DNA from: a virus
DNA length: 64,000 nt
Direction: 5' to 3' (one strand)
Virus record (IMG/VR): IMGVR_UViG_3300021226_000189
Every line of letters begins with the position of its first letter. Positions within the stretch are counted from its first letter, which is position 1. Shown here piece by piece: positions 203 to 56,061 of the stretch. The notes below the pieces were generated by a model. That model made no database searches. It worked only from the letters and a program-made list of their open reading frames with translations, and was not told the origin of the DNA. The position numbers were made by a program, and so were the translations under genes.

Positions 203-736
203 TTAGAACAAAGGTTTTTCAATTTCTTGGGAAATTTTTTGTTGAAGCTTCTGATTAATAACATCTTTAAGATGTTTGTGAGCTTCGGCGTGATTTTCAG
301 CCATGATAGCTTCGACAAATTTGAGAATTGAAACGGACTCTTTGACACAATTATTGACCATCTTATCGCCTTTCTTTTTCATACCCTTTTTCTCGTAGCC
401 TTTCCAACAAGCTTTTTTCTCTTCATCTTCTTCTACAGGTTTTTTACGTTCGTAAGAACCTTTACCTTTTTTCGGTTTTTCAACTTTAGTTGGTGGGGCG
501 AAATGCCTACGTTCTTTCACTTTAGGTCCTTCAAAAACAGCTTTACCACCTCCCTGTTTCATTTTTTTAGTCACGGATTGTTCGTCTTCTTCTTCGGTCT
601 TGAGAAATTTTTTAATTTCTTTTTTCGGCATTTCTTTGGCTACTTTTTTAGCTTCACCAGAAACACCTTTCTGACCTTTCTTGGCTCCCATTACTGCACC
701 GAAGAATTTTTTTTGTTTTTCTGTTTTAGATGGCAT
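203..736 (-). CDS. Prohead core / internal head protein (gp67/68-like C-terminus) with DUF3008-like, ArfA-like and CWKGY basic modules
   Basis: Lies between gp21 and gp22. C-terminus FVEAIMAENHAEAHKHLKDVINQKL resembles T4-like prohead core proteins. Lys-rich blocks are separated by acidic linkers. Confidence 0.55.
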   Translation of the reverse strand: MPSKTEKQKKFFGAVMGAKKGQKGVSGEAKKVAKEMPKKEIKKFLKTEEEDEQSVTKKMKQGGGKAVFEGPKVKERRHFAPPTKVEKPKKGKGSYERKKPVEEDEEKKACWKGYEKKGMKKKGDKMVNNCVKESVSILKFVEAIMAENHAEAHKHLKDVINQKLQQKISQEIEKPLF

Positions 737-744
737 ATTATTAT

Positions 745-1410
745 TTAGATACTATTGATAAATTTTATGATTTGTTGACGAAGATAAGATTCAACATCAT
801 GTTTCGGAAGAGTTTTAATCGTCTTTTCAAAATTCTCATAAACTTCTTCGAATGAACCGTCTTGTTCTACGACATAAGTTTTACTTTCTAAAATACCATT
901 GACAAAAGCTTTTGGATAAGATGGATCGGCAACAGCGTCGATAGCCACTAAATGCATATTTTGAACCAAATTATAATCACGGTTTTCCATCAATTGACCA
1001 AGCGCACGGGTGGACATACCAACCTTAACACCATCATTAATGAGCGCACGGAGGATCTGCCCAGTAGGAGTTGATAAAACTTTAGCTTTCCCTACGAAAT
1101 AATCATCGACTTCATGTAATTCTGTGACCAAGTGACACGCTCTTTCGAGATTCACATCAGCACTTGTGGGGTGATTCAATTCGCCCATCGCTCTACCTGG
1201 AAGCACCATCTCATTAATGTATCTTTGAACTTCTGATCTGGTATCATCAAGTCGATACATTCTTTTATTTTTATTAACAGTATTACATCCGATAAAAGGA
1301 CCTTTAACATAAAGGTTGGATGAACTGTTTCGATTAGATTGCTCTTCAATAACTTCAAAGTTATCAAACACGTCAGGATTCTCTGCGATTAATTTAAGTT
1401 TCAACGCCAT
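745..1410 (-). CDS. gp21: Prohead protease (T4 gp21)
   Basis: Motifs LYVKGPFIG, NKNKRMY, GELNHP (catalytic His), STRALG (catalytic Ser), DAVADPS. Confidence 0.95.
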   Translation of the reverse strand: MALKLKLIAENPDVFDNFEVIEEQSNRNSSSNLYVKGPFIGCNTVNKNKRMYRLDDTRSEVQRYINEMVLPGRAMGELNHPTSADVNLERACHLVTELHEVDDYFVGKAKVLSTPTGQILRALINDGVKVGMSTRALGQLMENRDYNLVQNMHLVAIDAVADPSYPKAFVNGILESKTYVVEQDGSFEEVYENFEKTIKTLPKHDVESYLRQQIIKFINSI

Positions 1411-1443
1411 GATATTATTTATGTTTAATGGATAGTATTTCTA

Positions 1444-1908
1444 TCAATTTAATTCTTTTTCCGTGATAATTATGAATTCCATTTCATATTTCTTTGCGAA
1501 TTCTTTAGCAAATTTCCATTTATCACAATTATTTCTCCAAGCCACTTGTTCGTATAGTAAATTAGATTTTTTCTTACCTTTCGTAGCTTTTGGTTCTTGG
1601 GTTTGTTTCCATGGTTTAACTTCTATGAGATATTTTTTAATTTTGTCACCTTCTTTTATTTTTACATAAGCATCAATAAAATATTTTCTATTTTTCTTTT
1701 GAACGGTGTCAAAATATGGAATCGAAACTTCCTCACTATTCCATTCGAGAACATTAGGATTATTATCAGCCCATCGAAACAATTTTAATTCTAAACCAGA
1801 ACGATATATAATATTATCCAATTTACCAATATACTTTTGAGGATTTTTGGGAGAATAAAATCCTTGATAAAATTTACTATTACGTTTTGATAAACCTAGA
1901 TTGCCCAT
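1444..1908 (-). CDS. gp4: Head completion protein (T4 gp4, TnsA-like nuclease fold)
   Basis: Motifs YQGFYSPKNPQKYIG, IYRSGLE, WNSEE, YFIDAY, LIEVKP, FIIITEKEL. Confidence 0.9.
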   Translation of the reverse strand: MGNLGLSKRNSKFYQGFYSPKNPQKYIGKLDNIIYRSGLELKLFRWADNNPNVLEWNSEEVSIPYFDTVQKKNRKYFIDAYVKIKEGDKIKKYLIEVKPWKQTQEPKATKGKKKSNLLYEQVAWRNNCDKWKFAKEFAKKYEMEFIIITEKELN

Positions 1909-2282
1909 TAAGCTATATCATCATCAGGTTCTTCAACAATCACTTCAGGCTCAGGCTCTACTACAACCGATGGATCAGAATAGCTAAATGTTCGAGCATC
2001 GCTGTCATATGAATAACCTTCTGGCATAGTTACATATACTCGGTCAGCTAGACCTGCTGCACTTGCTCGATCATTCAAAACAATTCCTAGCATGGTATTG
2101 CTATGAAATCTTTCAAGAGCAAGATCAACATCTTCATTGAGACTATCAACGATCAATTGTGGTTCACGATTCCAAAAATCACGATATGCTTCATTCATTG
2201 TTAGCATAAGGTGACGTACTGCTTTGAGTACTTTAAGTGAGTACTCTCTATTTTGTTCTTTATAGGTTAGTGGTTCTATCAT
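1908..2282 (-). CDS. Hypothetical protein downstream of the fibre genes (possible fibre assembly factor)
   Basis: ORF track gives 1908..2327. ATG at 2282 (MIEPLTY) removes the overlap with the upstream gene. Confidence 0.5.
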   Translation of the reverse strand: MIEPLTYKEQNREYSLKVLKAVRHLMLTMNEAYRDFWNREPQLIVDSLNEDVDLALERFHSNTMLGIVLNDRASAAGLADRVYVTMPEGYSYDSDARTFSYSDPSVVVEPEPEVIVEEPDDDIA

Positions 2283-2293
2283 AAGGTTATATA

Positions 2294-3700
2294 TTATCGT
2301 TGAATTTCTTGGCGAATTGCGACCCAATCAACATAACACGTTTTAGACACAGCTTCCAATGTTAGAATGCCAACATAAGGCGTTGTTGAGCTCCATCCAA
2401 GTGCAGAATATGCGGTGTGTGTAAATACTTGATTTACCAATGTTGTCCATGTAGAGCTATTCCACGGGGAGCTAGAAAAATAAACCTCAGTTTGAGTTGT
2501 TGAGAGTGGCCTGAAAAATAATCTATAACGTGTTCCGGATGCAAAATTCCCAGTTGAAAAAGTTAGTCCAGACACCAAAACTATAGCAGATTGACCGTTC
2601 CTTAAAAGTTCGATAGATCCATTTGAAAAATTAACTCTTAAATCTAAATTTGTCCCACCACCAGCAAATGACATATAATAGATAGCCTGACTTGTGCTAT
2701 CAACACAAAAGCAGGACTGAATACTCATTCCATAGGGTGACGCTGTTTGGCCGTTGTATGTGGATAAGCGTAATAAGTTCACAGCATTGATTGTATTTGC
2801 TGTTGTATTACTAATTACTCCCCATGCTCTATAGCTTGCAGAATCACTTGAAGCAGTATATACAGAGTTTGTAGCTCCAGTACCAGCAGTTCGTTCAAAT
2901 GTCCACCCATGAGTTCCGATAGTTGCAGTAGCGCCAAGATTTCCAAATGTAGGGAAGTCTTCAAAGATCTCAGCAAATGGGACTAATCCATCTTTATATA
3001 CAAAGCGGTTGCTCATGCTATTTAGCAATGCTTCTCTTGCTCCAGCTCCATAAGTGTAATTTGTGGCATTTAATGTAAGTGATGTAGCAATAGTTGGACT
3101 TGTGATAGTAGGCGATGTTCCAAATACTAAACTACCACTACCAGTTTCATCGCTAACAGCAGCAGCAAGAGTCGCACTCGTAAAGCTCGCAGGATGACTG
3201 CTAAACACGTCACCCCAGCTTGTGCCATTGTAAAAGCTCAACTCAAATGCATCAGAAGAATAAACTACTAAACCAGCAGCAGGTGATGCTATAGCATTTC
3301 GTTGAGCGATTGTCATTACTGGAGGTAAAAACCCTAGAGTTGTGCTATTAATTTGAAAAATAGCACTAGCATTACGTGTTGTTCCTCCGATTGTTACACC
3401 ACCACCACTTGGTTGTAAATCAACATTGCTCGTAGTTCTTGTGGCATTTGACGTTCCTTGAATAGTAATACTACCATTTGAAGATGTACTACCGTTAACT
3501 GTAGCAATTGTTGGTGTAGTTAGTGTAGGTGATGTAGCAAACACCAAACTTCCACTACCAGTTTCATCTGCAATAGTAGTAGCTAAATTTGCACTCGTTG
3601 CACTGCTTAGAAATGTCTGCATTGAACTCGTCACATTCAGCTTTGCTGGTGCGATAGTGTTGTTAGCAATTACATTGTTTTTTACTTGTGTGACTGGCAT
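2294..3700 (-). CDS. Fibre / virion structural protein A
   Basis: T/S/G-rich, two DETGSGSLVF(A/G)TSPT repeats, beta-rich C-terminal domain, TAAATA at 3706-3711. Confidence 0.75.
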   Translation of the reverse strand: MPVTQVKNNVIANNTIAPAKLNVTSSMQTFLSSATSANLATTIADETGSGSLVFATSPTLTTPTIATVNGSTSSNGSITIQGTSNATRTTSNVDLQPSGGGVTIGGTTRNASAIFQINSTTLGFLPPVMTIAQRNAIASPAAGLVVYSSDAFELSFYNGTSWGDVFSSHPASFTSATLAAAVSDETGSGSLVFGTSPTITSPTIATSLTLNATNYTYGAGAREALLNSMSNRFVYKDGLVPFAEIFEDFPTFGNLGATATIGTHGWTFERTAGTGATNSVYTASSDSASYRAWGVISNTTANTINAVNLLRLSTYNGQTASPYGMSIQSCFCVDSTSQAIYYMSFAGGGTNLDLRVNFSNGSIELLRNGQSAIVLVSGLTFSTGNFASGTRYRLFFRPLSTTQTEVYFSSSPWNSSTWTTLVNQVFTHTAYSALGWSSTTPYVGILTLEAVSKTCYVDWVAIRQEIQR

Positions 3701-3742
3701 AAAATTATTTAAGTTGGTATAATTTGTTGTAGTAGGGACATA

Positions 3743-10015: not shown

Positions 10016-10690
10016 ATGAATTTATGGGATTTTATCACACAAAATGCGCAAGCCCTTACTCTAGTTTTTAGCGTTTTAGGTAGCGTTCTATTGTCTATAA
10101 AACGTGTTAGAACGTGGTTGACCGACAAATATAAAAAACATCAGGAATACAACAAATCAAAACACTTGATACCCAGCACTTTACAAGAAATTAAAGAGTG
10201 TGTAATGAATTTAGATGATAGAGTGAAGCGAGTCGAATATGAGATTTCCCCAAATGGTGGTGGTTCCATGAAAGATTCGCTGAATATAGTAAAAGCTGAA
10301 ATTGAAGCTTTGTTTTGGTTGAACCCTAAACCATCCTTTAGAACAACGTCTAAAGGTTTGAATATTCAAGTTAATGAATCTTATTGTCATTTATGTGGAA
10401 CTTCCTCAGAAGAACTACTTAAACAAAATTGGAAAAATTTCATTGAAGATGGAGAACAATTGGACGATTTTATGAGAAGATGGGAATACTCATCAGATAC
10501 AATGTCGCAATATTCTGGAAAATTAAAATTCAAAAATTCTAGAGATGAAAGTTTGGGTGAGTGGGTAATAAAAGTTAGACCATTAGGACCGATAAAAGGT
10601 GGACAGGACTACCTGTGGCATGGATCTATTTTACCATCCGATCAAAAAGCAAGAGATTGTGCTAAAAGCTACAATATTCCCTTAAATTAA
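10016..10690 (+). CDS. Membrane protein with N-terminal TM helix, coiled coil and PAS-like domain (holin-like candidate)
   Basis: Hydrophobic ALTLVFSVLGSVLLSI, PNGGGSMKD motif, PAS signature VNESYCHLCGTSSEELLKQNW. TAAATA at 10005-10010. Confidence 0.6.
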   Translation: MNLWDFITQNAQALTLVFSVLGSVLLSIKRVRTWLTDKYKKHQEYNKSKHLIPSTLQEIKECVMNLDDRVKRVEYEISPNGGGSMKDSLNIVKAEIEALFWLNPKPSFRTTSKGLNIQVNESYCHLCGTSSEELLKQNWKNFIEDGEQLDDFMRRWEYSSDTMSQYSGKLKFKNSRDESLGEWVIKVRPLGPIKGGQDYLWHGSILPSDQKARDCAKSYNIPLN

Positions 10691-11100
10691 GAATATTTTT
10701 TAACTAAATATTCAGCATATCTCTGGATTTCATCTTCATCCAAATAACAGTCAAACGGACCATCATCTTTTAATAATTTGATTAATTTTTTTCGAGTGAT
10801 TTCGTAAGGTTTGAGATAATCAATTCCAAAATCATAAGCTATTTGTTTATTACTTCGCAAACCTTTAGTGTCAAAATATCTACCTGATGGATGTTCAACT
10901 GCTACGTGTGTGTATTCGATTTTATCACCATCTAAGGGATACCCTTCTGGATTTGATAATATAAAAATTTTCCACCCTGTTAAATCGTGTAATTTAAGAG
11001 CTAGAGAAGCACAATTACCTTGTAAATAATCATCGTGGGTGTTATCATCATACACACTTTCATACAATAAAGCTAAATTTTTATAATCTAGATTTTTCAT
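10687..11100 (-). CDS. Hypothetical protein with Cys-His-Asp (transglutaminase/papain-like) motif order
   Basis: Likely start ATG at 11100 (MKNLDYKNLALLYE). Motifs GNCASLA, THVAV, FDTKG. Confidence 0.55.
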   Translation of the reverse strand: MKNLDYKNLALLYESVYDDNTHDDYLQGNCASLALKLHDLTGWKIFILSNPEGYPLDGDKIEYTHVAVEHPSGRYFDTKGLRSNKQIAYDFGIDYLKPYEITRKKLIKLLKDDGPFDCYLDEDEIQRYAEYLVKKYS

Positions 11101-22274: not shown

Positions 22275-22871
22275 TTAAAATTGAAACAATATAATTTTGT
22301 TATCGTAGTATGTTCCAAAATCAAAATATGAAAATTCTGCCTTTGGAGTTTTTTTCAATATGTTGAGTAATCCGTTTGGATCATAACCAACATCTTCTAT
22401 TATAATAACACCTCCCTTTTCTATTTTATCAGAATATAATTCCAACAATTTAACATGAGAATCTGGAGAATGAGGGCCATCATCGATAAGAATCGTTATA
22501 TTTTCAAATTTATTCGCTATTTCCTCGGTATATGCGTCTCCTACTATATACTCAACATTTTTTCCAGAAATCCATTCATTATTTATTGGTACAGAATGTT
22601 CATTTTTATCATATAGATTATCTAAACCATATATTTTACTATCTTCTGAAAAGTATTCTCTCCATAATTTTAAAGATGCTCCACTTCTAACCCCAATTTC
22701 GACTATAGTGTTATTATTGTCTCTAAATTTTTTAAAGAAATCTTCATAAAATTTATCTATATAAGATTTTGGATGACCTTTATCTGTCCCGTAATTGGGA
22801 TTAACTCTCATATTTTCTTCATCGAAAATATTCAGTTTATATTCATTTAAAATTTGTTTCAATGTTTTCAT
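22275..22871 (-). CDS. Class I SAM-dependent methyltransferase (likely sugar O-methyltransferase)
   Basis: GTDK..KSY, IVEIGVRSGASL, IDDGPH, GGVIIIED. Confidence 0.85.
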   Translation of the reverse strand: MKTLKQILNEYKLNIFDEENMRVNPNYGTDKGHPKSYIDKFYEDFFKKFRDNNNTIVEIGVRSGASLKLWREYFSEDSKIYGLDNLYDKNEHSVPINNEWISGKNVEYIVGDAYTEEIANKFENITILIDDGPHSPDSHVKLLELYSDKIEKGGVIIIEDVGYDPNGLLNILKKTPKAEFSYFDFGTYYDNKIILFQF

Positions 22872-32052: not shown

Positions 32053-32574
32053 TTATCTAACTGGTCTGGTATTTTTATTTTTTTTAACTGGTCTGGTATT
32101 TTTATCATTTAACGGTCTAGCACTATTATCCCAATACTCATTACCCATGAAATGATTGGATACTGGTTTAATGATCCATTTGAATTCATCTTTATCTTTA
32201 TTAAACAAAATCACTGCTTGTGGTCTGGCATATTTTCTACCAGGAACGGTTTCCCCCGTTTGTTGATTTATACCTTTTTGAGCTACCTGTAAAACATAAT
32301 GCTGCCCATCAGGAAAGTTTTTACCTTTTTTAATTTTTCCCTGTTCGGTAGGAACTGGAACGTAACCCTGTTCTTCCATCCAGTCTAACATACGTTCCTC
32401 TAGAGTTTGATATGCCTTTCTAATTCTTCTATAAGCTTCTCTACCACCTTGTTTGATATTGGAAATATTTTTCGCAGTCTGTGGCATAATAACACTACCA
32501 ACTTCCTTCAAACCTTGTCCGAAAGCTGACCAAAATCCTTCTTCAAGTAATTCTTTTTGTTTAATTTTATACAT
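32053..32574 (-). CDS. Hypothetical late / internal-protein-like
   Basis: Leader MYKIKQKELLEE. C-terminal 21-bp duplication (32058-32078 and 32085-32105) encodes KNTRPV twice. Confidence 0.65.
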   Translation of the reverse strand: MYKIKQKELLEEGFWSAFGQGLKEVGSVIMPQTAKNISNIKQGGREAYRRIRKAYQTLEERMLDWMEEQGYVPVPTEQGKIKKGKNFPDGQHYVLQVAQKGINQQTGETVPGRKYARPQAVILFNKDKDEFKWIIKPVSNHFMGNEYWDNSARPLNDKNTRPVKKNKNTRPVR

Positions 32575-33025
32575 CTACTGTTATATTTTGGTTTGCTACA
32601 TTATTCAATGCTACATCAATCAGAGCATCCAATTCGTCTTTGATAAAATCTTTTCCAATTAAAACTTTATGATCGTTGGTGGATCTATTTCCGATTGAAA
32701 AAGGAATACTGGTAAATTTTTTACCACCGATAATACAGTCAAATAAACAAACTGGTCTATCAACGGTGTTGCCCTCTCCGATATTTATTCTTATGGTATC
32801 TTCAACAGGTTTCTCTAATCTCATGGCATTGACAGTTGTAAATCTTACTATTTGATTTTTTGTTTTTTTATCTTCACCCCACTCAACATCTTCACCGTGT
32901 AACACATTGTGTGCGCCATTACCAGAATCTAATTTAGCTGGTATAGTTCCGATTCCTTCGATTTTAATGTCTTCGACTAAACCCAAGACATTTTTTTCCA
33001 CAAAAAATTGTTTGAAACTTCTCAT
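32567..33025 (-). CDS. Retropepsin-like / RimK-associated putative protease
   Basis: IPAKLDSG, RPVC, FSIGNRS, VLIGKDF. Leader MRSFKQFFVE. Confidence 0.8.
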   Translation of the reverse strand: MRSFKQFFVEKNVLGLVEDIKIEGIGTIPAKLDSGNGAHNVLHGEDVEWGEDKKTKNQIVRFTTVNAMRLEKPVEDTIRINIGEGNTVDRPVCLFDCIIGGKKFTSIPFSIGNRSTNDHKVLIGKDFIKDELDALIDVALNNVANQNITVDV

Positions 33026-33030: not shown

Positions 33031-33492
33031 TTAGAATCGGTTGAAATCATCAGCTTGTTCAAAGCCAGTATTTGCAAAATCAGCTTTAGCATCGAGACGA
33101 TGCCAGACATCAGAAACATAAGTAGAAGAAATAGTAATAGCAGAGACCATCCAATCTTCAAATTCCGCAGAATCTTTCATATCATAGAGTCTTTTAGCAT
33201 ATTCGGCAAGCTTTTTCAATTCGGAAACCAAAACTTCATTCACTTCATGGGTTTCTACTGGACCGACTGGATCAATTTCCATGACCATTCCTTGGGCTTT
33301 TCCACCACCTAAATCATCCGACATGTCATCATCAAATTCCATCCCATCATCTTCAAATTCGTCGTCACCGAATTCATCATCGGAAAAGTCATCTTCCATG
33401 TCCATATCAAGATCGTCATCAAATCCTTCGTTGATGGTTTTACCACGGAAAGACTTCCAAATCATTTCATTTTCTTCTCCTTTGAATTTCAT
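33031..33492 (-). CDS. Acidic hypothetical late protein
   Basis: D/E/M-rich N-terminal half, TAAATA at 33498-33503. Confidence 0.7.
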   Translation of the reverse strand: MKFKGEENEMIWKSFRGKTINEGFDDDLDMDMEDDFSDDEFGDDEFEDDGMEFDDDMSDDLGGGKAQGMVMEIDPVGPVETHEVNEVLVSELKKLAEYAKRLYDMKDSAEFEDWMVSAITISSTYVSDVWHRLDAKADFANTGFEQADDFNRF

Positions 33493-33500: not shown

Positions 33501-33905
33501 TTAGCTAATTGAATCTAAATTATCTCTCAATTCTTGTCCTTCTTGTGCAGGTCGAATTATAGGAAGTATTTGAGTTTGATAAATATCCTTCGCAGTTTTG
33601 CCCGAACTTTGAATTGTTTTGACAGTATCTGGTTTTTTCAACAAATCTAAGAAATTTTCTAAAACAATTCTGTCATTACCTGATGGTCTAGGCTCCATTA
33701 AAGCTGCTAATACCACATCTTCGATATAACGAATTTCTGCTTGAGAACTCAATGGAATTGTTTCTGGTTCTTCCGCTGGCATTGGAGGTGCTTCTTGCCC
33801 CATATCTGCACTCGGATCACCTTCCATACCCATCTCAGGATTTTGTTCATCCTGTTCAACGATGCGGCGGTAATGCTCAATTAATCTTAAAGTTTTCGAT
33901 TTCAT
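33501..33905 (-). CDS. Hypothetical late protein
   Basis: Leader MKSKTLRLIEHYRRIVE, Pro/Glu-rich linker. Confidence 0.7.
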   Translation of the reverse strand: MKSKTLRLIEHYRRIVEQDEQNPEMGMEGDPSADMGQEAPPMPAEEPETIPLSSQAEIRYIEDVVLAALMEPRPSGNDRIVLENFLDLLKKPDTVKTIQSSGKTAKDIYQTQILPIIRPAQEGQELRDNLDSIS

Positions 33906-33906
33906 A

Positions 33907-34314
33907 TTATCTTACTGCGCTAACTCTCAATGTTTGTGATGCTTTATCAATCGCTTTCAAAGTCTCTTCGTTACGTTTTTTCAAATAGTTATTCAATTTC
34001 GGAATCACTTTTTTATCACCCTCCTCTTTAGTCTTCTTCAACTGTCTTTTAGTCGTCATGAAGGGTTTTTTGTAAATCGGTGCTTGGTCGTAACTATCAA
34101 TCGTATCGTCGGCAATTTTATCTGGATTGATCTGATAATTTTTTACGGCTTCCAAAACTACGTTACCCTTTTGAGTGTGTAGAATTATTTTATTTCCTTT
34201 AGAAGTAAAAGGAATTTTCTTTTCATGTAGAAACATTTTCGCCTCCAAAGCTGCATCCATTTTAGACTCATTTGCTGGATCATGTTCTTCAAGGATTTCT
34301 AAAAATTTGCTCAT
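33907..34314 (-). CDS. Hypothetical late protein
   Basis: Leader MSKFLEILEE, TAAATA at 34320-34325. Confidence 0.7.
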   Translation of the reverse strand: MSKFLEILEEHDPANESKMDAALEAKMFLHEKKIPFTSKGNKIILHTQKGNVVLEAVKNYQINPDKIADDTIDSYDQAPIYKKPFMTTKRQLKKTKEEGDKKVIPKLNNYLKKRNEETLKAIDKASQTLRVSAVR

Positions 34315-35709: not shown

Positions 35710-36636
35710 ATGGAACTGAATTACATCAAAAATATCGACGCAATGGCTGGATTGGAGGAATTACCCGACAAATCAATCCATTGTTGCGCCACCTCTCCAC
35801 CGTATTACAATCTTCGCCAATACACAGAAGATGAAAACGAATTTGGATTGGCAGAGACACCCGAAGATTTTGTCAATGGTTTATGTGATTATTATGATGA
35901 AGTCTACCGTGTTTTGCGAGATGATGGTGTGGTATTTGTCAATTTGGGTGATACCTATCTCGGAAGTGGTAAAGGTGTGTGGAAAGGTAGAGAAGAGGCT
36001 CAAAAGGAGTCTTTCCAATTCAAAGAAAAACCTAAAGAAAAATTGGGTGGCTGGAGAAAACCGAAACAATTGGCACTAATTCCTTTCCGTTTTGCCATTG
36101 AGATGCAGAACAGAGGTTGGATTTTGCGAAATAATATCGTTTGGCATAAGGGAAACGCACTGCCTCAAAGTGTGACAGATCGTTTTGTTGTTGATTTTGA
36201 ATCGGTTTTCATGTTTGTGAAAAGCAAATCATATTATTTCAAACAACAAATTGAACCATTCGCCAATGCTTCCAATCCGAATGAAGTGTATACAGGTGAA
36301 GCTACGAAGGATTACGAGTCTCAGAAGGCTCAGAACCCAAGTGATACCAAAAGACGCATTTTAGAGGGTATGCGTAAGCGAGGAGGACGATCCATGCGAG
36401 CAGTGTGGAAGATCAATACCAAACCCAACAAGTCCGTTCATACAGCGACATTTCCTGAAGAATTGGTGGAACGTATGTTGAAAAGTGGTTGTCCTGAAAA
36501 CGGTGTTGTATTAGACTTTTTCATGGGTTCAGGAACAACAGGTGTTGTCGCCAAAAAATTGGGCATGAATTACATCGGATTCGATTTGAATCCTGAATAT
36601 TGTGAAGTCGCAAGAAATAGAATCAATTCTTTTTAA
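35710..36636 (+). CDS. Orphan amino-DNA methyltransferase (N4C/N6A, beta class)
   Basis: TSPPY, IVWHKGN, HTATFPEEL, LDFFMGSGTT. Confidence 0.92.
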   Translation: MELNYIKNIDAMAGLEELPDKSIHCCATSPPYYNLRQYTEDENEFGLAETPEDFVNGLCDYYDEVYRVLRDDGVVFVNLGDTYLGSGKGVWKGREEAQKESFQFKEKPKEKLGGWRKPKQLALIPFRFAIEMQNRGWILRNNIVWHKGNALPQSVTDRFVVDFESVFMFVKSKSYYFKQQIEPFANASNPNEVYTGEATKDYESQKAQNPSDTKRRILEGMRKRGGRSMRAVWKINTKPNKSVHTATFPEELVERMLKSGCPENGVVLDFFMGSGTTGVVAKKLGMNYIGFDLNPEYCEVARNRINSF

Positions 36637-36856
36637 TTTTCTTCTTACGTCTCTTTTTCAATTTACCTTTTCTGGTGGTGATTCCCATCCCATAAGGATT
36701 TCTAGCGTCTCCAGGTGCAAACCAGTCGGTGTTTTCAATACCTGCGTGTCCTGCGACATCACCACCGTAAACATCACCAGCAGTCATATCCTCATTCAAC
36801 ATTTGTTGATAAATATTGGCGATTTCATTTTTATCGTTGACAAAGGGTTGATTCAT
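36623..36856 (-). CDS. Small late protein with a basic C-terminal tail
   Basis: TAAATA at 36862-36867, leader ending QMLNE, tail RKGKLKKRRKKKIKKN. Confidence 0.6.
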   Translation of the reverse strand: MNQPFVNDKNEIANIYQQMLNEDMTAGDVYGGDVAGHAGIENTDWFAPGDARNPYGMGITTRKGKLKKRRKKKIKKN

Positions 36857-42311: not shown

Positions 42312-43221
42312 GATTTTATATAAACAACTTAAAGGTCAAAATTTCCTCAGTGTGGGAAATGATCAGATTGTAATTGATTTCCAATCTGGTTTCAATCTGA
42401 TTACTGGTAAGAATATTGATAATCCAGACCGTGTGAACGGTATTGGAAAATCCTGTATCGCTGAATTGTTCTACTATGCTTTGTTTGGTAAAACCATTCG
42501 TGAAATAAAAAAGGAATTCATCATCAACAATGTCACTAAAGGAAAGGGTGCTATCGAGCTTACTTTTGATGTGGAGACTGACAATGATACGCAGACATAC
42601 ACAATCAAGCGACAACTCAAACCAAGCTCTGTGACGCTCCTGCGAGGTGAAGAAGATATCACCAAGGACTCCATCGCAAATACGGACAAATTCATATGTG
42701 ATCTGATCGGTTCCAATCCTGTCATTTGTCGTAGCTGTGATATTCTATCTCTTTCGGATAACATCCCATTCATGGCGAAGAAACCAGAGGAGAAGCGCAA
42801 ATTCATCAATGATATTTTCTCTTTGGAAGTCTTTGGTAAGATGAGCAACGAATTGAAGAATCTGATTCGTGAGAACAAATCTGAAATGAATATCTCTTCT
42901 GCCAAGTTGGAAGAAATCAACAACACTTTGGAAACTCTGAATAAACAACAGGAGGATTATCTGAAGAAAGTTCAAGAACGGGAAGCAATTCTCGAAGAAA
43001 AACGTAAAGAAATTCAGCAGAAAATTGATGAAACGTCTGAAAAGATTGCTAAAATATCCATTACGGATGTTTCAGCAATCCAAACAGAAAAGGACAAATA
43101 CGAAGCTGCTTGGGATAAGTTGGATGGAAAGATTGCAGATGTGAATAGTCAAATCTCTTCCAAAGAAACTTTGAGGAAGTTGAAAGTAAAAGAAATTGAA
43201 CAAATAAATAATGTGATATGA
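42304..43221 (+). CDS. gp46: Recombination ATPase gp46 (Rad50/SbcC-like), N-terminal half
   Basis: NFLSVGN, Walker A G.N......NGIGKS, LYYALFGK, then coiled coil. Stops before the CXXC hook. Confidence 0.9.
   Translation: MRKILYKQLKGQNFLSVGNDQIVIDFQSGFNLITGKNIDNPDRVNGIGKSCIAELFYYALFGKTIREIKKEFIINNVTKGKGAIELTFDVETDNDTQTYTIKRQLKPSSVTLLRGEEDITKDSIANTDKFICDLIGSNPVICRSCDILSLSDNIPFMAKKPEEKRKFINDIFSLEVFGKMSNELKNLIRENKSEMNISSAKLEEINNTLETLNKQQEDYLKKVQEREAILEEKRKEIQQKIDETSEKIAKISITDVSAIQTEKDKYEAAWDKLDGKIADVNSQISSKETLRKLKVKEIEQINNVI
43205..43210 (+). promoter_or_regulatory. Late promoter TAAATA for the inserted GNAT gene
   Basis: 7 nt upstream of the ATG at 43218, the same spacing as other late genes. 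Confidence 0.6.
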
Positions 43222-43688
43222 TAATTTTAAATGAAAATGAGATAATGTGGGAATCATACGCTGGTGGAATTGAATATCATATCAATTCTGACGAAGAATC
43301 CGATGAAATTAAAATAGAAGCTTTCTATAGAGGTGATAAGATTGGAGATGCTATTGCAAAAATATTATTCGGAGATTTTTATTATGAGTTTGATGATGTT
43401 ATGAGTGAGGATGACATTTATGAATTATTTCCAGATGATTCTTTAGCGAAAATAGAACATGTTGAGGTTAGTAAGCAATATCGAGGAAGTGGTGTAGCAA
43501 AGGAGATGATGAATCGTTTGTTAAGGGAATTGGAGCGACAAGGGTTTAAACAATTTTATCTTAATGCCTCACCAATGGGGATTGATAAAGGATTTAATAA
43601 ACCAGAATTGGTAAAATTTTATCAAAAATTTGGATTTAATACTTTATTAGACCAAGGAGTAAACACGTTAATGATTAAAAAATTATGA
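43218..43688 (+). CDS. GNAT-family acetyltransferase inserted within gp46
   Basis: Motif A IEHVEVSKQYRGSGVAKEMM; LNASP; LVKFYQKFGF. Confidence 0.85.
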   Translation: MIILNENEIMWESYAGGIEYHINSDEESDEIKIEAFYRGDKIGDAIAKILFGDFYYEFDDVMSEDDIYELFPDDSLAKIEHVEVSKQYRGSGVAKEMMNRLLRELERQGFKQFYLNASPMGIDKGFNKPELVKFYQKFGFNTLLDQGVNTLMIKKL

Positions 43689-51022: not shown

Positions 51023-51731
51023 TTGTCTGGAGGTATTGAAAAAAATTCCAGACAATTCAGTCGATTTAGTGTTATCTGATCCACCATACGAGCAAAATGC
51101 TAGGTTGGAGTGGGATAAAATTATAAATTTTGATAAATTATGGGTAGAATTGAATAGGATTATTAAAAATAAAACACCTATCGTTTTGATGGGCAACCAA
51201 CCATTTACAACCGATTTAATTAATTCAAAAAGAGATTGGTTCCGTTATGAATGGGTATGGGATAAACATATCCCAAGAGGAATGCATCAAGCCAAATATC
51301 AACCCATGAGAAAACATGAAAACATTATAGTGTTTTCGAGAGAATATCCCATGAATTATTATCCAATAATGGAAGAACGCGACAAACCAATTAGGAGAAA
51401 GAATTATAATAAGAATTCAAAGGGTATTGATGGTAATTATAAAGAAGATCAAACTAATAAATGGTTCACTTATACCCACAAAAATCCTAATACCATCATT
51501 ACAGATTGTTGGGAAAAAAATAAAGGTAAAATACACCCAACTCAAAAACCAGTATCTTTAATGAAATATCTAATTCAAACTTATACCAAAGAAAATGATA
51601 TAGTATTAGATTTTTGCTTTGGTTCTAACTCTACAGGAGTAGCCGCGAAAGAGTTGGGTAGACGATATATTGGGATTGAAAAGGAAGAAAAATACTTTAA
51701 TATTGGTAAAGATAGATTAATGACCATTTAA
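50985..51731 (+). CDS. Orphan amino-DNA methyltransferase (N6A/N4C, beta class)
   Basis: GDCLE, SDPPY, HPTQKP, VLDFCFGSNSTG. ATG at 50985 preferred. Confidence 0.92.
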   Translation: MQIEKGIHLFHGDCLEVLKKIPDNSVDLVLSDPPYEQNARLEWDKIINFDKLWVELNRIIKNKTPIVLMGNQPFTTDLINSKRDWFRYEWVWDKHIPRGMHQAKYQPMRKHENIIVFSREYPMNYYPIMEERDKPIRRKNYNKNSKGIDGNYKEDQTNKWFTYTHKNPNTIITDCWEKNKGKIHPTQKPVSLMKYLIQTYTKENDIVLDFCFGSNSTGVAAKELGRRYIGIEKEEKYFNIGKDRLMTI

Positions 51732-53411
51732 CCATAACCAATGCGCGTAATTTTTCGGTTTTTTGAAACCACGATCTTTAAACTCACCTTTATTATTGGT
51801 GAGTTTATCTTTTTGAATTTGTTCAGAAAAATAATTCATTATGTAACTTTCGTTTATACCACTTTTCAATGCTGCAATTTCTTCCTCTAAGCGATCAATT
51901 TCATCATAATCAGGATCATCGGAATTCTTCAATTCTTTCAATTGTTTTACGAGTTCTTTTATTTCATTTGAAGAATTATCAGTTTTTTGATTATTTTTTT
52001 CAGCTTTTTTATTTTTATCGAATTGTGCTTTCATCATTGATCCACTCTTTTTACTGAATATTTCCGCTCTACGAGCAATTTCTTTTCTTGAAAGTCTATA
52101 CCATGTTTTAAATATCTCTTTCTTTTCAGGAGTATCCAACACTTCATCTAAAACCGCATCTTCATATCCATCGTACAAATTTGATTCGTTTTCCATATTT
52201 TCAGATACATCATCTTTAGCCTTTTTAATAATATAATCACCAAAAGCTTTTATATCATTACCATATGACGCTGTTTTATCGGAAAATGCTTCCTTGGTGG
52301 TTCCTTCTTTATTAGAAGCGAAGGCTACCAATTCATCCATAATGTCATCAGATAATTGTTTATTTGTAGCTAATATTTGTTCTACTTTATCATGTGGTTT
52401 GGTTTTACCAGAACGCAGCATTTTAATACGCTTCAATTCGTCCAAGATATTTTCAGCAAACTCTTTTTCTGGCGAATGTTTAGCAGATAATGATATTTCA
52501 CCTTTTTTAAGAGAAGCGTTTAGTTTTCTTATTTGAGCTAAAAGAGGAGCAGCTTGACTGTAGATATTATCTCGATCTTCTCTAGAAAAACCAGTTCGTT
52601 CTTTGAGCCTTTCATTTGCAATTAAAGCAGCATGGGATGTTTTAGGAATTCTTCTACCCATACTGGATTTTTTCTCGACTTTCTTTTCGTTTCCGCTCAA
52701 TAATTCTTTAATTTGAAATTCGTCAAGCCATTCAACTCCATCCAGACTGAATCCTCTTGGTTTACTCTTGATGTATTGGGAATCTTCAGGTGAAATTTCT
52801 GTTCTATTTTTTAGAAATAAATTCAATCTCTGTTTAGCCACATCATTCTGATTTTTATAAAACTTTTCCCCTTTTTTCAGAATATATTCAATTTCTTCTG
52901 GTGTATAAACTTCGTCATCACTGATTATCGATTTTTTAGTTCCTTGATCCGATGGTGCATCTAAGTATTCGAGGATATTATTTTTATCTAAAAATTTATT
53001 TTTTATTTCAGGTGATAAGATTTCATCTTCATGTTTTTTAACAATTGTGAAAAGGGCATATTCTTTTTCTTTTTGTGTTGACCAAGACCATTTACCCATA
53101 TCCATCCACTTATTGAATCCGTCTGTAAAAGATTCTCTTCTTTGACCAGGTGCAACTTTACAAACTTTTTTAGTGTATTCTGAAAAATTAGACTCATATT
53201 TGAATATATCTAATAAATTCATCATCAAATATTCGATTGTTTTTTCTCTTAAATGACCAGGTGACGTTACACCACCATCTTTTTTTATTTTTCCACTGAC
53301 TTCTTTATAAAATTCGCTAAATTTAGGAAAATATGTTTTCCAAACGCTGGTTCTCTCTTCATTTATTAGATGAACTTTTTCTACCAAATAATCAAATCCG
53401 TAATTTCTCAT
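51717..53411 (-). CDS. Large helical hypothetical late protein
   Basis: TAAATA at 53417-53422, leader MRNYGFDYLVE..LINEE, K/E-rich. Confidence 0.7.
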   Translation of the reverse strand: MRNYGFDYLVEKVHLINEERTSVWKTYFPKFSEFYKEVSGKIKKDGGVTSPGHLREKTIEYLMMNLLDIFKYESNFSEYTKKVCKVAPGQRRESFTDGFNKWMDMGKWSWSTQKEKEYALFTIVKKHEDEILSPEIKNKFLDKNNILEYLDAPSDQGTKKSIISDDEVYTPEEIEYILKKGEKFYKNQNDVAKQRLNLFLKNRTEISPEDSQYIKSKPRGFSLDGVEWLDEFQIKELLSGNEKKVEKKSSMGRRIPKTSHAALIANERLKERTGFSREDRDNIYSQAAPLLAQIRKLNASLKKGEISLSAKHSPEKEFAENILDELKRIKMLRSGKTKPHDKVEQILATNKQLSDDIMDELVAFASNKEGTTKEAFSDKTASYGNDIKAFGDYIIKKAKDDVSENMENESNLYDGYEDAVLDEVLDTPEKKEIFKTWYRLSRKEIARRAEIFSKKSGSMMKAQFDKNKKAEKNNQKTDNSSNEIKELVKQLKELKNSDDPDYDEIDRLEEEIAALKSGINESYIMNYFSEQIQKDKLTNNKGEFKDRGFKKPKNYAHWLWLNGH

Positions 53412-53416
53412 ACTCT

Positions 53417-53444: not shown

Positions 53445-53558
53445 ATGATTCCCTTTTCTCAATTCTTTCTAATCAAAGAAGCTTTCGATACTGTATCAGA
53501 ATTTATGTTAAATCCTGAGCATTCCGATAAAACATACTCCTATCATAATATTAAATAA
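53445..53558 (+). CDS. 37-aa ORF consisting mostly of an internal-protein-type leader
   Basis: MIPFSQFFLIKEAFDTVSEFMLNPEHSDKTYSYHNIK, 5 nt after TAAATA. Confidence 0.5.
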   Translation: MIPFSQFFLIKEAFDTVSEFMLNPEHSDKTYSYHNIK

Positions 53559-53564
53559 AATTAT

Positions 53565-55301
53565 ATGGAATTTGATAAAGAATATCGTAGATTAATAATG
53601 GAGTTCTCCGAAGGAGCAATTCGTAAGATCGTGCAAAAATTCCAAAACGATGCTTCAGAACAGGAAATCCGTAGGGAAGTTCAGGATTTTGAGAAATATA
53701 AACAATCTTTACAAAAGAAAGACCCATTCCAATACAAATCATGGATAGAGTTCACAGAGGCTATCCATGCTGCCAAGGGTAAATCAGAATTTAAGAAAAA
53801 GAAAGCACCTACTAAAGATGTAGTCGCTAATCAAGAGGATATTATCGCTGATGATGAGAACGTGACAATCTATCGTGGAGATTCTCAGGATAAATGTGTA
53901 ATGTATGGAAAAGGATACACATTCTGTATTTCTAGACCAGGTGCTGGAAATTTATATTCGATGTATAGATTAAACGATAATTCCACTTTCTATTTCATAT
54001 TTTTTAAGAAAAAATCAAAGTCTGAAAAAGATCACATTATGGTCTTAGATCATACTAGCAGTGGATATCAATGGACTTTTGCCGATAATGACACTCAACC
54101 AGTTGAGGGTGGTTGGGATGCAATAGTTAGTGAATATCCAGAATTAAAGAAATATAAAAAAATATTGGTTAATAAAGAATTAGATGATGTTGAAAAGGGA
54201 TTTTTAGAGAGAAAGAGAGAATTTAAACGACAATTACCTGCTTACACTAACGACCCGAATGTAGATTTGGAAAAGGCTGTGGTTTTGTGGAATAATTTTT
54301 CCCATAAAGAAAAAGCAGCAGTTTTAACGAGTTATTATCGAGATACTTTACATGATGTAATTTGGAAACAACTGGATAGTAGTCTTAGGAATGAGTATAT
54401 AAACATGATACCTGATTTATCCCCCTATCAAATGGATAATTTAACTCCGAAAGAAGTTGCTAGGTATAAAAAATTGAGAGATACGTTATTCGATGATGAA
54501 TATCCCGATCAATATCCAGAATTTGAAGCAAATAAACTTGATGATATCGAAAATGTCTTAAAACATCCGTATTTTGCTATGACATATGCGATGTCTTGGA
54601 ATAATGATTGGGATAGTATTCCTGATGAAGTGTTTGAATTGTTGGCGGACTACCCTGATTTTTCTTTGGAATATGCTGAATGGGTTGCTAAGGAAGTTCC
54701 TAATACGTTCATACCAGCAGATATCTATGAATCAATAATGGATTCTGGTGTGTTTGAAGACATGTCCGATGAATTGAGAGAATATTTTAGAAAAAATTGG
54801 GGAAAAGATACTTTCTCAGAATCCTTCCAATTTGATAAAGAATATCAAAAATTGATGGAAGCATACCAGAAAGATTTGACAAAATTCCACCGATTCTTTC
54901 AAGAATTGGCTCGATATCAATCAAATCATTACGGGACGTACAACTCTTCCGTTTTAAGAGATGAATATCTTAAATTACCTGAAGATTTTCGTAAAATGAT
55001 GAGATTACCCAAATCTCAATATAAAAATTGCTTTAGAGGTGATGACGGTAAGACTCAAAAAGCAGTAAGTTCTTTTGTATGTAATCCTAATGTTGAAAAA
55101 GCGAGGAGAAATGCTTCTTTTTATGGTGTTAATGTTTTTTCTTTATTAAAAGATGTCTATTCTTTATCTGATACGATGGTGGTTGATTTTAAAAGGTTGG
55201 CTAAATATTTTGGTAAAAAAATTGCTTATAAAATAATGGATGAATACGGCATTGGTGATGATGAGAATGAGGTATTAGTGTTCGATATTGTTTTTAAATA
55301 G
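53565..55301 (+). CDS. Two-module late protein; C-terminal module is ADP-ribosyltransferase-like
   Basis: TAAATA at 53552-53557. Leader EFDKEY repeated internally at 54831. Module 2 has CFRG / VSSF / DENEVLV. Confidence 0.65.
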   Translation: MEFDKEYRRLIMEFSEGAIRKIVQKFQNDASEQEIRREVQDFEKYKQSLQKKDPFQYKSWIEFTEAIHAAKGKSEFKKKKAPTKDVVANQEDIIADDENVTIYRGDSQDKCVMYGKGYTFCISRPGAGNLYSMYRLNDNSTFYFIFFKKKSKSEKDHIMVLDHTSSGYQWTFADNDTQPVEGGWDAIVSEYPELKKYKKILVNKELDDVEKGFLERKREFKRQLPAYTNDPNVDLEKAVVLWNNFSHKEKAAVLTSYYRDTLHDVIWKQLDSSLRNEYINMIPDLSPYQMDNLTPKEVARYKKLRDTLFDDEYPDQYPEFEANKLDDIENVLKHPYFAMTYAMSWNNDWDSIPDEVFELLADYPDFSLEYAEWVAKEVPNTFIPADIYESIMDSGVFEDMSDELREYFRKNWGKDTFSESFQFDKEYQKLMEAYQKDLTKFHRFFQELARYQSNHYGTYNSSVLRDEYLKLPEDFRKMMRLPKSQYKNCFRGDDGKTQKAVSSFVCNPNVEKARRNASFYGVNVFSLLKDVYSLSDTMVVDFKRLAKYFGKKIAYKIMDEYGIGDDENEVLVFDIVFK

Positions 55302-55391
55302 TGGACAGAATTTGATAAAGAATATCAAAGGCTTCTTAAAGATTTGACATTACCTAAAGATGTGTTAAGGTATTCCCATGCCAAATCCTAA
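55295..55391 (+). pseudogene. Decayed third copy of the promoter plus EFDKEY leader, with no start codon or cargo
   Basis: TAAATA-GTGG-ACA-GAATTTGATAAAGAATATC versus TAAATA-AAATTAT-ATG-GAATTTGATAAAGAATATC at 53552. Confidence 0.55.
55344..55371 (+). promoter_or_regulatory. sigma70-like promoter TTGACA-N16-TAAGGT with TGn
   Basis: 6 nt upstream of the ATG at 55378. Confidence 0.65.
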
Positions 55392-56061
55392 TGTTTCTTC
55401 TAATATCGCCATTTTCACGGCAACCAAACGCAATGATTGGCAATTTCCCTTGACTAAAACTGCGATAGAATTCGATCTGGATGATTTCATGCACACCAGA
55501 TTGAATAACACTCAAGGACTTCCCAAGGTCTATAATGAATGTCTTGACCTAGCGATCAAAGAGAAATTTGATTACGTAATGTTCATTCACGATGATGTTC
55601 ATCTGGAACATGACCCTCGCCCAAAGCTGGAGAAGCTATTCCAAGAATACGATATTGTCGGTGTGGCGGGATGTTCCAAGGCTGAAATCAAGTCTCCTGC
55701 ACTCTGGCATCTGATGGGTGGAGGATTTGGTGGTGGCAATCTACATGGCGCGGTGGCTCATGGTAACGCTGATAAGAAGCATATGACGAGCTTTGGTGTA
55801 TATCCCCATCGTGTGGTGATGATCGATGGTGTTTTCATGGCATTTAATCGAAAGGCGATTGAGACGGTGAGATTTGATGAGGATTGTCCATCAGGCTTTC
55901 ATTTTTACGATCTTTGCATGTGTGCTAGAGCTTTAGAAAAAGGCTTGAAAATCGGTGTTGGTGATGTTATGATTACTCACGAATCACCAGGACTGAGAGA
56001 ATTTACGGAGGACTGGAAATCTGGTGAGTCTTATTATCTCTCCAAATATGGAAACGCATGA
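55378..56061 (+). CDS. GT-A glycosyltransferase (GT2-like)
   Basis: YN..LD, FIHDDV, IVGVAG, IDGVFMA, FHFYD, HESPG. Confidence 0.8.
   Translation: MPNPNVSSNIAIFTATKRNDWQFPLTKTAIEFDLDDFMHTRLNNTQGLPKVYNECLDLAIKEKFDYVMFIHDDVHLEHDPRPKLEKLFQEYDIVGVAGCSKAEIKSPALWHLMGGGFGGGNLHGAVAHGNADKKHMTSFGVYPHRVVMIDGVFMAFNRKAIETVRFDEDCPSGFHFYDLCMCARALEKGLKIGVGDVMITHESPGLREFTEDWKSGESYYLSKYGNA

What the first reader, a model, noticed from the sequence alone, without database searches (positions are those of the whole stretch)
203..55400. Dispersed system of late promoter + gp21-cleavable leader + effector cassettes (candidate packaged, injected enzyme arsenal)
Seen: about 11 otherwise unrelated ORFs start with short leaders ending in [I/L/F]-x-E: MKNLDYKNLALLYE (11100), MYKIKQKELLEE (32574), MRSFKQFFVE (33025), MKFKGEENEMIWKSFRGKTINE (33492), MKSKTLRLIEHYRRIVE (33905), MSKFLEILEE (34314), MNQPFVNDKNEIANIYQQMLNE (36856), MIILNENEIMWE (43218, a looser MWE match), MRNYGFDYLVE (53411), MIPFSQFFLIKE (53445), MEFDKEYRRLIME (53565). 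Most are directly preceded by TAAATA or lie in TAAATA-driven operons, and several sit as islands among early genes, some on the opposite strand. Established: T4 internal proteins and Alt carry N-terminal capsid-targeting leaders (MKTYQEFIAE) removed by gp21 after Glu. Inference: this phage uses portable promoter-leader units to load diverse cargo (GNAT, ART-like, Cys hydrolase, retropepsin, basic peptide) into the head for delivery to the host.
Basis: partly seen in the sequence, partly recalled or inferred. Interest (0 to 1): 0.85.

Follow-up and report, generated by a model that had tools for sequence, protein, structure and literature searches.

The report
Head-loading leader tags on phage proteins
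An uncultured T4-like phage puts short N-terminal tags, each ending in the cutting site of its own head-maturation protease, on a varied set of late proteins (a small aspartic protease, an ADP-ribosyltransferase-like module and others), most likely to load them into the capsid as phage T4 does with its internal proteins; the principle is known, the lineage and the cargo are new.

Summary
A stricter form is real. Two hydrophobic residues, x, then Glu at residue 9-14 marks 21-33% of late-promoter genes but 4-11% of other genes in the window and two of three related IMG/VR genomes.

The window encodes a gp21-type prohead protease. That protease, the scaffold and probably the capsid protein carry the same site.

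Relatives give the strongest evidence. One cargo (53565-55301) appears behind about 45 different leaders, always joined at the Glu. The leader of the retropepsin-like protein is fixed at positions 4, 7, 8 and 10, the positions that matter in T4's capsid targeting sequence. Leader remnants, duplications and a repeat-flanked ART-like insert show shuffling.

Verdict: a T4-type capsid-targeting/propeptide system with enzyme cargo, convincing for about 8 of the 11 ORFs and weaker for the GNAT and 10687-11100. Packaging, cleavage and injection are inferred, not shown. This scan has already reported similar tag systems on other phage DNA and elsewhere in this genome.

The parts
745..1410 (-). gp21-family prohead (head maturation) protease. 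Its own N-terminus is a 10-residue stretch ending L-I-A-E.
   Evidence: phrog_207 at 5e-53. T4 gp21 structure 5JBL at E=6e-19, with His (ELNHP) and Ser (MSTR) in place. Late promoter 5 nt upstream.
1..165 (-). Start of the gp22-like scaffold gene, which runs off the window. Its residue-11 site is L-F-S-E.
   Evidence: Translation. Full 294-aa orthologues in relatives have 4.4-5.4 [LIFM]xE sites per 100 aa against a genome mean of 1.84 (97th-99th percentile).
203..736 (-). Lys-rich 177-aa protein between protease and scaffold. It has no leader of the type described and is possibly a core or internal protein.
   Evidence: Translation. Only unknown-function PHROGs. The N-terminal third is absent in G002 and G003.
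10687..11100 (-). 137-aa ORF after the portal gene, with a 14-residue leader ending L-L-Y-E. Weak candidate.
   Evidence: N-terminus confirmed. No family hit. Absent from G001-G003. Its leader resembles the '..L-I-Y-E' leaders of late genes in G002 and G003.
32053..32574 (-). 173-aa cargo C, with a 12-residue leader ending L-L-E-E, followed by GFW.
   Evidence: The first 20 alignment columns are the best conserved part among 4 orthologues (0.45 against 0.20 or less). A near-identical leader type heads homologues of cargo H (P0066, P0074).
32567..33025 (-). 152-aa retropepsin-like aspartic protease (cargo A) with a 10-residue T4-CTS-like leader (M-R-S-F-K-Q-F-F-V-E).
   Evidence: PF05618 at 1.8e-7 and 31.6 bits (cutoff 27), with the domain starting at residue 13. 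D-S-G motif present. 114/120 homologues keep the 10-residue leader. Entropy is lowest at positions 4, 7, 8 and 10.
33031..33492 (-). 153-aa acidic protein (cargo E) with possible sites at residue 13 (Glu in relatives, Lys here) and residue 22 (I-N-E).
   Evidence: Late promoter 5 nt upstream. Orthologue alignment.
33501..33905 (-). 134-aa protein (cargo D) with conserved L-I-E at residue 10 and I-V-E at residue 17, followed by an acidic Pro-rich linker.
   Evidence: The first 20 columns are 0.70 conserved against 0.25-0.40 elsewhere.
33907..34314 (-). 135-aa protein (cargo B) with a 10-residue leader (M-S-K-F-L-E-I-L-E-E) that fits the T4 template.
   Evidence: Template hit. Late promoter. The leader block is 0.60 conserved against 0.20 or less elsewhere. 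The leader is tandemly duplicated in G002.
36623..36856 (-). 77-aa late gene with a 22-residue leader ending M-L-N-E, lying among plus-strand early genes.
   Evidence: Promoter and N-terminus confirmed. Conserved with its promoter in G001, G002 and G003.
43218..43688 (+). GNAT acetyltransferase inserted in the gp46-like gene. Its 12-residue N-terminus ends I-M-W-E. Weak candidate.
   Evidence: Pfam GNAT families above cutoff. Absent from relatives; G001 has an unsplit 596-aa gene. The N-terminus resembles the leader of cargo E only weakly (E=0.65).
51717..53411 (-). 564-aa protein F with a conserved 20-residue N-terminus (sites Y-L-V-E at 11 and I-N-E at 18), a conserved C-terminal ~20 residues and a hypervariable middle.
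   Evidence: Late promoter. Windowed conservation is 0.70 at the start against 0.15 or less in the middle. Termini of 43 homologues.
53445..53558 (+). 37-codon remnant: late promoter, 12-residue leader and the first ~17 residues of a cargo that is a full 243-aa gene in G003.
   Evidence: Sequence. G003 147910-148641. The stop codon overlaps the next cassette's TAAATA.
53565..55301 (+). 578-aa protein H. It consists of a 13-residue leader, a conserved ~420-aa module (invariant Cys121, His157, Asp162), a leader-like tail (res 422-433) and an ART-like module (res 434-578).
   Evidence: 94 homologues, 75 of them with the junction Glu followed by F-S-E-G-A behind diverse leaders. Glu13 is at least 90% conserved. 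In the AF2 model the leader helix has pLDDT 52 and the core is above 90.
54864..55298 (+). ADP-ribosyltransferase-like module (R-S-ExE type) fused to H.
   Evidence: Near-invariant Arg58-Gly59, Ser70, Glu134 and Glu136 in 28 sequences. AF2 pLDDT 94. The top ~20 VIA-align rows are all ARTs, at Z 4.0-4.6. Foldseek found nothing significant.
54829..55329 (+). 21-nt direct repeats (54829-54849 and 55309-55329) bracketing the 480-nt ART insert. The first 18 nt also occur at 53569.
   Evidence: the repeat finder family D1. Translation after the stop codon.
22275..22871 (-). Status open.
   Evidence: phrog_21658 at 8e-18. TAAATA 7 nt upstream. No homologue in relatives.

Best explanation
A subset of late genes of this uncultured T4-like phage encodes proteins with a short N-terminal propeptide of 10-18 residues, sometimes up to 22. 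The propeptide has an aromatic or hydrophobic residue near position 4 and ends in hydrophobic-hydrophobic-x-Glu.

By analogy with the T4 capsid targeting sequence, the proposed sequence of events is:
- The propeptide binds the scaffold core as the prohead assembles.
- The gp21-type protease (745-1410) cuts after the Glu.
- The mature protein stays in the head and leaves with the DNA.

The cargo includes a retropepsin-like protease, an ART-like module fused to a Cys/His/Asp module, acidic and unknown small proteins, and the large variable protein F. Leaders form several sequence families that are exchanged between cargoes by recombination.

Shown here: the motifs, their link with late promoters, the protease, the leader swaps and their conservation. 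Inferred: binding to the core, cleavage, presence in virions and injection.
For: - Protease: gp21 family with catalytic His and Ser.
- The same type of site is seen in proteins that T4 processes. The protease N-terminus ends L-I-A-E at residue 10 (T4 gp21 has L-I-E at 9, PMC9026906). The scaffold N-terminus ends L-F-S-E. The scaffold is at the 97th-99th percentile for [LIFM]xE density. In the capsid protein, F-Q-E is the last Glu before the conserved core.
- The tight motif goes with late promoters.
- In 84 distinct N-termini of the retropepsin-like family, positions 4, 7, 8 and 10 are the least variable of positions 2-10 (entropy 0.09, 0.62, 0, 0 against 1.2-2.5). These are the residues reported to govern targeting (4, 7) and processing (8, 10) of the T4 CTS (PMC9026906). 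The chance of that set coming out is 1 in 126.
- The Pfam domain starts only at residue 13.
- In 75/94 homologues of H, the same mature start follows about 45 different leaders of at least four families, all ending [LIM][LIMV]-x-E.
- The reverse also occurs: P0010 carries H's leader on the cargo of G003 147910.
- Stand-alone homologues of the ART module carry such leaders.
- The leader is the best conserved part of F, C, B and D.
- Signs of shuffling: a remnant leader at 53445, a duplicated leader in G002, and a repeat-flanked ART insert.
- The slot between F and 55378 holds a different leader-bearing gene in each of the four genomes.
Against: - There is no proteomic or biochemical evidence; the phage is uncultured.
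- The loose motif is at background in this Glu/Ile/Leu/Lys-rich proteome.
- The tight motif was defined after looking at the data, and orthologues in the three relatives are not independent samples.
- G001 shows no significant enrichment (p=0.07).
- The tail gp3-like protein (13023-14963) also starts with a motif match that belongs to its conserved domain, so the motif alone gives false positives.
- In some orthologues the Glu is replaced: Lys at residue 13 of cargo E in the window, and Lys at residue 11 of F in G001.
- The conserved L-L-E before F-S-E in the H family could be the start of the domain rather than a cut site.
- Several cargoes are acidic, unlike the basic T4 internal proteins.
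Confidence: 0.65

Rival explanations
1. The N-terminal motifs are chance products of an AT-rich, Glu/Lys/Ile/Leu/Phe-rich proteome, or are ordinary N-terminal helices of each fold. There is no common targeting function.
For: The loose pattern is at background and equal in early and late genes. The gp3-like tail protein and a glycosyltransferase (25767-26633) also match the tight motif. This reading is likely for a few listed ORFs (GNAT 43218, 10687-11100, methyltransferase 22275).
Against: The tight motif is 4-6 times more frequent in late-promoter genes in G002 and G003. About 45 leaders are swapped on one cargo, always at the Glu. The conserved positions equal the T4-critical positions. The leader is better conserved than the mature protein.
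Confidence: 0.12
2. The leaders are real sorting or recognition tags, but for something other than the head core.
For: The 32053-34314 cluster contains its own protease. F has conserved N- and C-termini with a variable middle, as attachment proteins can have. Nothing here shows a head location.
Against: The tags end in the gp21-type site that the protease, the scaffold and probably the capsid protein share. The retropepsin-like protein carries the tag itself. There is no radical-SAM gene in three related genomes. Tail, baseplate and fibre genes lack the tag.
Confidence: 0.15
3. The conserved 5' coding segments serve translation of near-leaderless late mRNAs (a downstream-box type signal), not the protein.
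For: TAAATA lies exactly 5 nt before most late start codons, so late mRNAs have almost no 5' untranslated region.
Against: Most late genes, including all tail and baseplate genes, lack the motif. Leader families differ in sequence and length but share an amino-acid rule ending in Glu.
Confidence: 0.03

Closest known systems
[quoted passage not shown]
   Same: A gp21-family protease is present. The leader is about 10 residues, with an aromatic residue at 4, hydrophobic residues at 7 and 8 and Glu at 10. The genes are late. Unrelated mature proteins sit behind the tag. An ART-type enzyme is among the cargo, as Alt is in T4.
   Different: The portal is 29% identical or less to any cultured phage. 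There are several leader families of 10-22 residues instead of one. Many more tagged genes are predicted: 8-13 late genes per related genome fit the tight motif. The cargo is largely enzyme-like or acidic rather than small and basic. One cargo is a fusion with an internal leader-like joint. Nothing has been verified experimentally.
Polymorphic internal-protein loci of T-even phages: diverse ORFs behind a conserved CTS (summarised in PMC3012670 and PMC9026906; the primary work, Repoila et al. 1994, is cited from my own knowledge)
   Same: There is a variable slot (53445-55301) holding a different tagged gene in each related genome. Remnants and repeats point to recombination at or near the leader.
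   Different: Here the leaders themselves are swapped on one cargo, and the DNA of the leaders is not one conserved cassette.
Propeptide-processed ejection and inner-body proteins of phiKZ, 201phi2-1 and SPN3US giant phages (PMC9026906, PMC7411985)
   Same: A gp21-related protease cuts after Glu in many head proteins, including enzymes that are delivered to the host.
   Different: Those propeptides are long and not a short portable tag, and the cleavage motifs differ.

Membership tests
T4-type CTS / internal-protein system | The phage encodes a gp21-family prohead serine protease | tested here: met
   phrog_207 at 5e-53. 5JBL at E=6e-19, with His and Ser conserved.
T4-type CTS / internal-protein system | An N-terminal leader of about 10 residues with key residues at 4 and 7 (targeting) and 8 and 10 (processing, Glu at P1) | tested here: met
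   32567-33025 and 33907-34314 fit the T4-derived template. In 84 homologue N-termini, positions 4, 7, 8 and 10 are the most conserved. Other leaders are longer and fit only the end rule h-h-x-E.
T4-type CTS / internal-protein system | The same tag on unrelated mature proteins; cargo exchangeable | tested here: met
   Leader swaps on the H family. P0010 is a chimera. Stand-alone ART homologues carry leaders. The slot is variable.
T4-type CTS / internal-protein system | Late expression | tested here: met
   TAAATA lies 5-7 nt before 7 of the 11 starts, and the rest are in the same-strand late blocks. This is promoter consensus only; no transcript data.
T4-type CTS / internal-protein system | Cleavage after the leader Glu by the prohead protease | not testable with these tools
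   Only indirect: the same site type occurs in the protease, the scaffold and the capsid protein.
T4-type CTS / internal-protein system | The mature protein is present inside the virion and ejected with the DNA | not testable with these tools
   Uncultured phage; no proteome available.
R-S-E clade mono-ADP-ribosyltransferases (module 54864-55298) | Arg, Ser-x-Ser/Thr and Glu-x-Glu motifs in order | tested here: met
   Near-invariant Arg58-Gly59, Ser70, Glu134 and Glu136.
R-S-E clade mono-ADP-ribosyltransferases (module 54864-55298) | ART fold | tested here: inconclusive
   The top ~20 VIA-align rows are ARTs (C3, Vis, iota, VIP2, ExoS, HopU1), but Z is only 4.0-4.6 over about 100 residues. Foldseek found nothing at E 0.001 or better. 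No Pfam hit.
PF05618 retropepsin-like protease (32567-33025) | Pfam score above the gathering cutoff, and an Asp-Ser/Thr-Gly motif | tested here: met
   31.6 bits against a cutoff of 27, residues 13-145. L-D-S-G-N-G in the alignment.
GNAT acetyltransferase (43218-43688) | Pfam GNAT score above cutoff | tested here: met
   PF13673 at 36.4 bits against 23.6, and PF00583 at 34.9 against 20.7.
Cysteine hydrolase (H residues ~88-202) | A recognised Cys-His(-Asp) hydrolase fold or family | tested here: inconclusive
   Cys121, His157 and Asp162 are invariant in 66 sequences. No Pfam hit, and no fold match for this part: the lists are filled by the helical region.

The most novel reading that the evidence does not exclude
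The lineage runs a capsid-delivered 'polymorphic effector' system. Several interchangeable leader families act as one head-loading code. Recombination at leader-like motifs builds fusion proteins such as H. Their internal leader-like joints (the L-M-E site at residue 433) are cut by the head protease, releasing separate enzymes, among them an ART and a Cys/His/Asp module, that are injected to act on the host.
Probability: 0.3. Interest if true: 0.75.

Novelty: new member of a known kind. Interest (0 to 1): 0.55.

Why it matters
If the tags work as in T4, the set of proteins these abundant uncultured phages carry into the cell can be read directly from sequence. That gives a list of candidate host-takeover or anti-defence effectors: a retropepsin-like protease, an ART-like module, a Cys/His/Asp module and protein F with its hypervariable middle.

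It would also show that the CTS rule (positions 4, 7, 8, 10) is kept across T4-like phages whose portal proteins are under 30% identical. In addition, it offers about 45 natural leader variants for the T4-based protein-packaging platforms already in use.

Tried and rejected
- Megablast of two 5-kb pieces against GenBank phages: no match.
- No whole genome is held for the window. An exact 38-mer was not found in IMG/VR. Relatives were reached through the portal protein instead.
- PHROGs and Pfam gave nothing for 8 of 10 candidate proteins, even at E up to 1.
- tblastn of the ART module and of the retropepsin-like protein against cultured phages: no match.
- Protein Atlas search for F: no usable hit.
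- Foldseek against the PDB for both models: nothing at E 0.001 or better.
- VIA-align for H 1-433 returned only generic helical matches, so the Cys/His/Asp core stays unassigned.
- The second 'leader' inside H was first taken as the ART module's own leader. Homologues show that a similar motif lies 12-19 residues from the natural C-terminus of the N-module. It is therefore the module's tail, and the ART insert sits between two copies of it.
- Radical-SAM-linked tag (RB43 type): no such gene in three relatives.
- No protein-complex prediction was run. An enzyme-substrate or tag-scaffold pair is unlikely to give a clear answer.


Full report
WHAT THE WINDOW IS

It is part of an uncultured T4-like myovirus with about 34% G+C.
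- The portal (11102-12946, phrog_213 at 3e-85) is at most 29% identical to that of any cultured phage.
- The window holds head, neck and fibre genes (1-18942, minus strand), a block of sugar-transferase genes, and T4-type replication genes on the plus strand.
- No whole genome is held.
- The portal found 59 related IMG/VR loci. I fetched three related genomes in full: G001 (197.7 kb, complete), G003 (207.5 kb, complete) and G002 (184 kb). Genes were called in a script.

THE OBSERVATION

- All eleven N-termini are as quoted.
- Seven have TAAATA 5 or 7 nt before the ATG. The other four follow late genes on the same strand.
- TAAATA with its end 3-9 nt upstream precedes 18/82 called starts but only 1.1% of all ATGs. 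In the four genomes the spacing is exactly 5 nt in 146 of about 210 cases.
[ILF]-x-E with Glu at residue 8-25 occurs in 25/82 proteins, at 0.279 of internal positions, and in 7/18 late against 18/64 other genes.
- Tightened to two hydrophobic residues, x, and Glu at residue 9-14, the window count is 13/82 against 0.058.
- That tight form separates late-promoter genes from the rest: window 6/18 vs 7/64, G002 13/56 vs 12/257, G003 13/54 vs 12/304, and G001 8/63 vs 16/262, which is not significant.
- The tightened pattern is post hoc, and orthologues are shared between genomes. These numbers therefore support the case but do not prove it.
- A template taken only from the T4 CTS gives 2 hits in the window against about 0.13 expected.

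THE MACHINERY

- 745-1410 is a gp21-family prohead protease (phrog_207 at 5e-53; T4 gp21 5JBL at 6e-19; catalytic His and Ser present).
- Its N-terminus ends L-I-A-E at residue 10. T4 gp21 has L-I-E at 9 (PMC9026906).
- The next genes are a Lys-rich protein (203-736) and the start of a gp22-like scaffold (1-165), whose residue 11 ends L-F-S-E.
- In relatives the 294-aa scaffold has 4.4-5.4 [LIFM]xE sites per 100 residues against a genome mean of 1.84. This fits a protein that is degraded by such a protease.
- The capsid protein of G001 matches T4 gp23 (1e-28). Its last Glu before the conserved core is in F-Q-E. This is a plausible counterpart of the T4 propeptide site, but the alignment there is not firm.

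COMPARATIVE TESTS OF THE LEADERS

1. Retropepsin-like protein 32567-33025.
- The PF05618 domain begins at residue 13.
- 114 of the 120 best homologues keep a 10-residue leader followed by Lys.
- In 84 distinct N-termini the entropy is 0.09, 0.62, 0 and 0 at positions 4, 7, 8 and 10, and 1.2-2.5 at positions 2, 3, 5, 6 and 9.
- PMC9026906 reports that in the T4 CTS residues 4 and 7 carry targeting and residues 8 and 10 carry processing.

2. Protein H, 53565-55301.
- It has 94 homologues.
- In 75 of them the same mature start (F-S-E-G-A...) follows a leader of 10-18 residues.
- There are about 45 different leaders of at least four families, all ending [LIM][LIMV]-x-E. Glu13 is at least 90% conserved.
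- One of these families is the type seen on cargo C in the window (32053-32574).
- P0010 joins H's leader to the cargo of the G003 gene 147910-148641.
- In the AF2 model (pLDDT 87) the leader is a separate low-confidence helix.

3. Conservation. In F, C, B and D the first 20 alignment columns are the best conserved part (0.70, 0.45, 0.60, 0.70).

4. Shuffling.
- The slot between F and 55378 holds a different leader-bearing gene in each genome.
- In the window that slot contains a 37-codon remnant (53445-53558) of the G003 gene. Its stop codon overlaps the next TAAATA.
- G002 has a tandemly duplicated leader on the orthologue of 33907.
- The 480-nt ART-like insert in H lies between 21-nt direct repeats. 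The repeated motif is the natural C-terminal tail of the N-module, as homologues show.

5. Accessory status. Leader-bearing late genes are more often accessory: 17/34 are not shared by all three genomes, against 42/139 for other late genes (p=0.04).

THE CARGO

- GNAT at 43218-43688 is confirmed.
- The retropepsin-like protease is confirmed.
- The C-terminal module of H has near-invariant Arg, Ser and Glu-x-Glu residues. Its confident model (pLDDT 94) has ADP-ribosyltransferases as its best structural neighbours, although only at Z 4.0-4.6. It is probably an ART.
- The N-module of H has an invariant Cys, His and Asp but no recognised fold.
- F has fixed termini and a hypervariable middle.
- The remaining cargoes have no known family.

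PER-ORF JUDGEMENT

- Well supported: 32567, 33907, 32053 and 53565, plus the remnant at 53445 as evidence of turnover.
- Moderately supported: 33501, 33031, 36856 and 51717.
- Weak: 43218 (an insert that splits gp46, absent from relatives) and 10687-11100 (absent from relatives).
- 203-736 has no leader.
- The gp3-like tail gene 13023-14963 matches the motif as part of its conserved domain. It is a false positive.

COMPARISON WITH WHAT IS KNOWN

- The CTS, its removal by gp21, and the idea that it lets T4-like phages load diverse proteins are established for T-even phages (PMC8442874, PMC9026906, PMC3012670).
- This is the same kind of system in a very distant lineage. It has several leader families, more enzyme-like cargo and a fusion protein.
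- Earlier notes of this scan report similar tags on other phage DNA and in another window of this genome.
- Cleavage, packaging and injection remain untested.

Noticed in passing
window-wide; e.g. 33493-33504, 34315-34326, 53412-53424: TAAATA ends exactly 5 nt before the start codon in 146 of about 210 late-type starts of the window plus three relatives. No Shine-Dalgarno sequence is visible, so late mRNAs would be almost leaderless.
   Followed up: partly
42304-44557: The gp46-like (Rad50/SbcC-type) gene is split into 305-aa and 290-aa halves by the GNAT gene. G001 has one 596-aa gene. G002 and G003 have other inserts at the same point.
   Followed up: partly
13023-14963: The gp3-like tail protein is 646 aa here but 344-359 aa in three relatives. 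It has an unexplained C-terminal extension of about 290 aa.
   Followed up: no
18964-31118: A run of about 14 minus-strand glycosyltransferase or sugar-modifying genes, only loosely conserved among relatives (24-57% identity, or absent), includes two paralogues that are 57% identical (19975-20739 and 21505-22272).
   Followed up: no
51717-53411: In the protein F family the first ~20 and last ~20 residues are nearly fixed in 43 homologues, while the middle is so variable that BLAST covers only 7-50% of it.
   Followed up: partly
34816-35280: A GIY-YIG-like gene (phrog_447 / homing endonuclease PHROGs) with its own late-type promoter heads the small-protein cluster. It is conserved in the relatives.
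   Followed up: no
53565-54863 homologues (P0047, P0052, P0069, P0087): Some homologues of the H N-module carry YD-repeat (PF05593) or leucine-rich-repeat (PF12799) regions. This family therefore accepts varied extra modules, reminiscent of polymorphic toxins.
   Followed up: no
2294-8497: Three fibre-like genes share N-terminal or internal segments (60-67% identity over 75-160 aa). They differ strongly from the relatives beyond the first ~500 residues of the long one.
   Followed up: no
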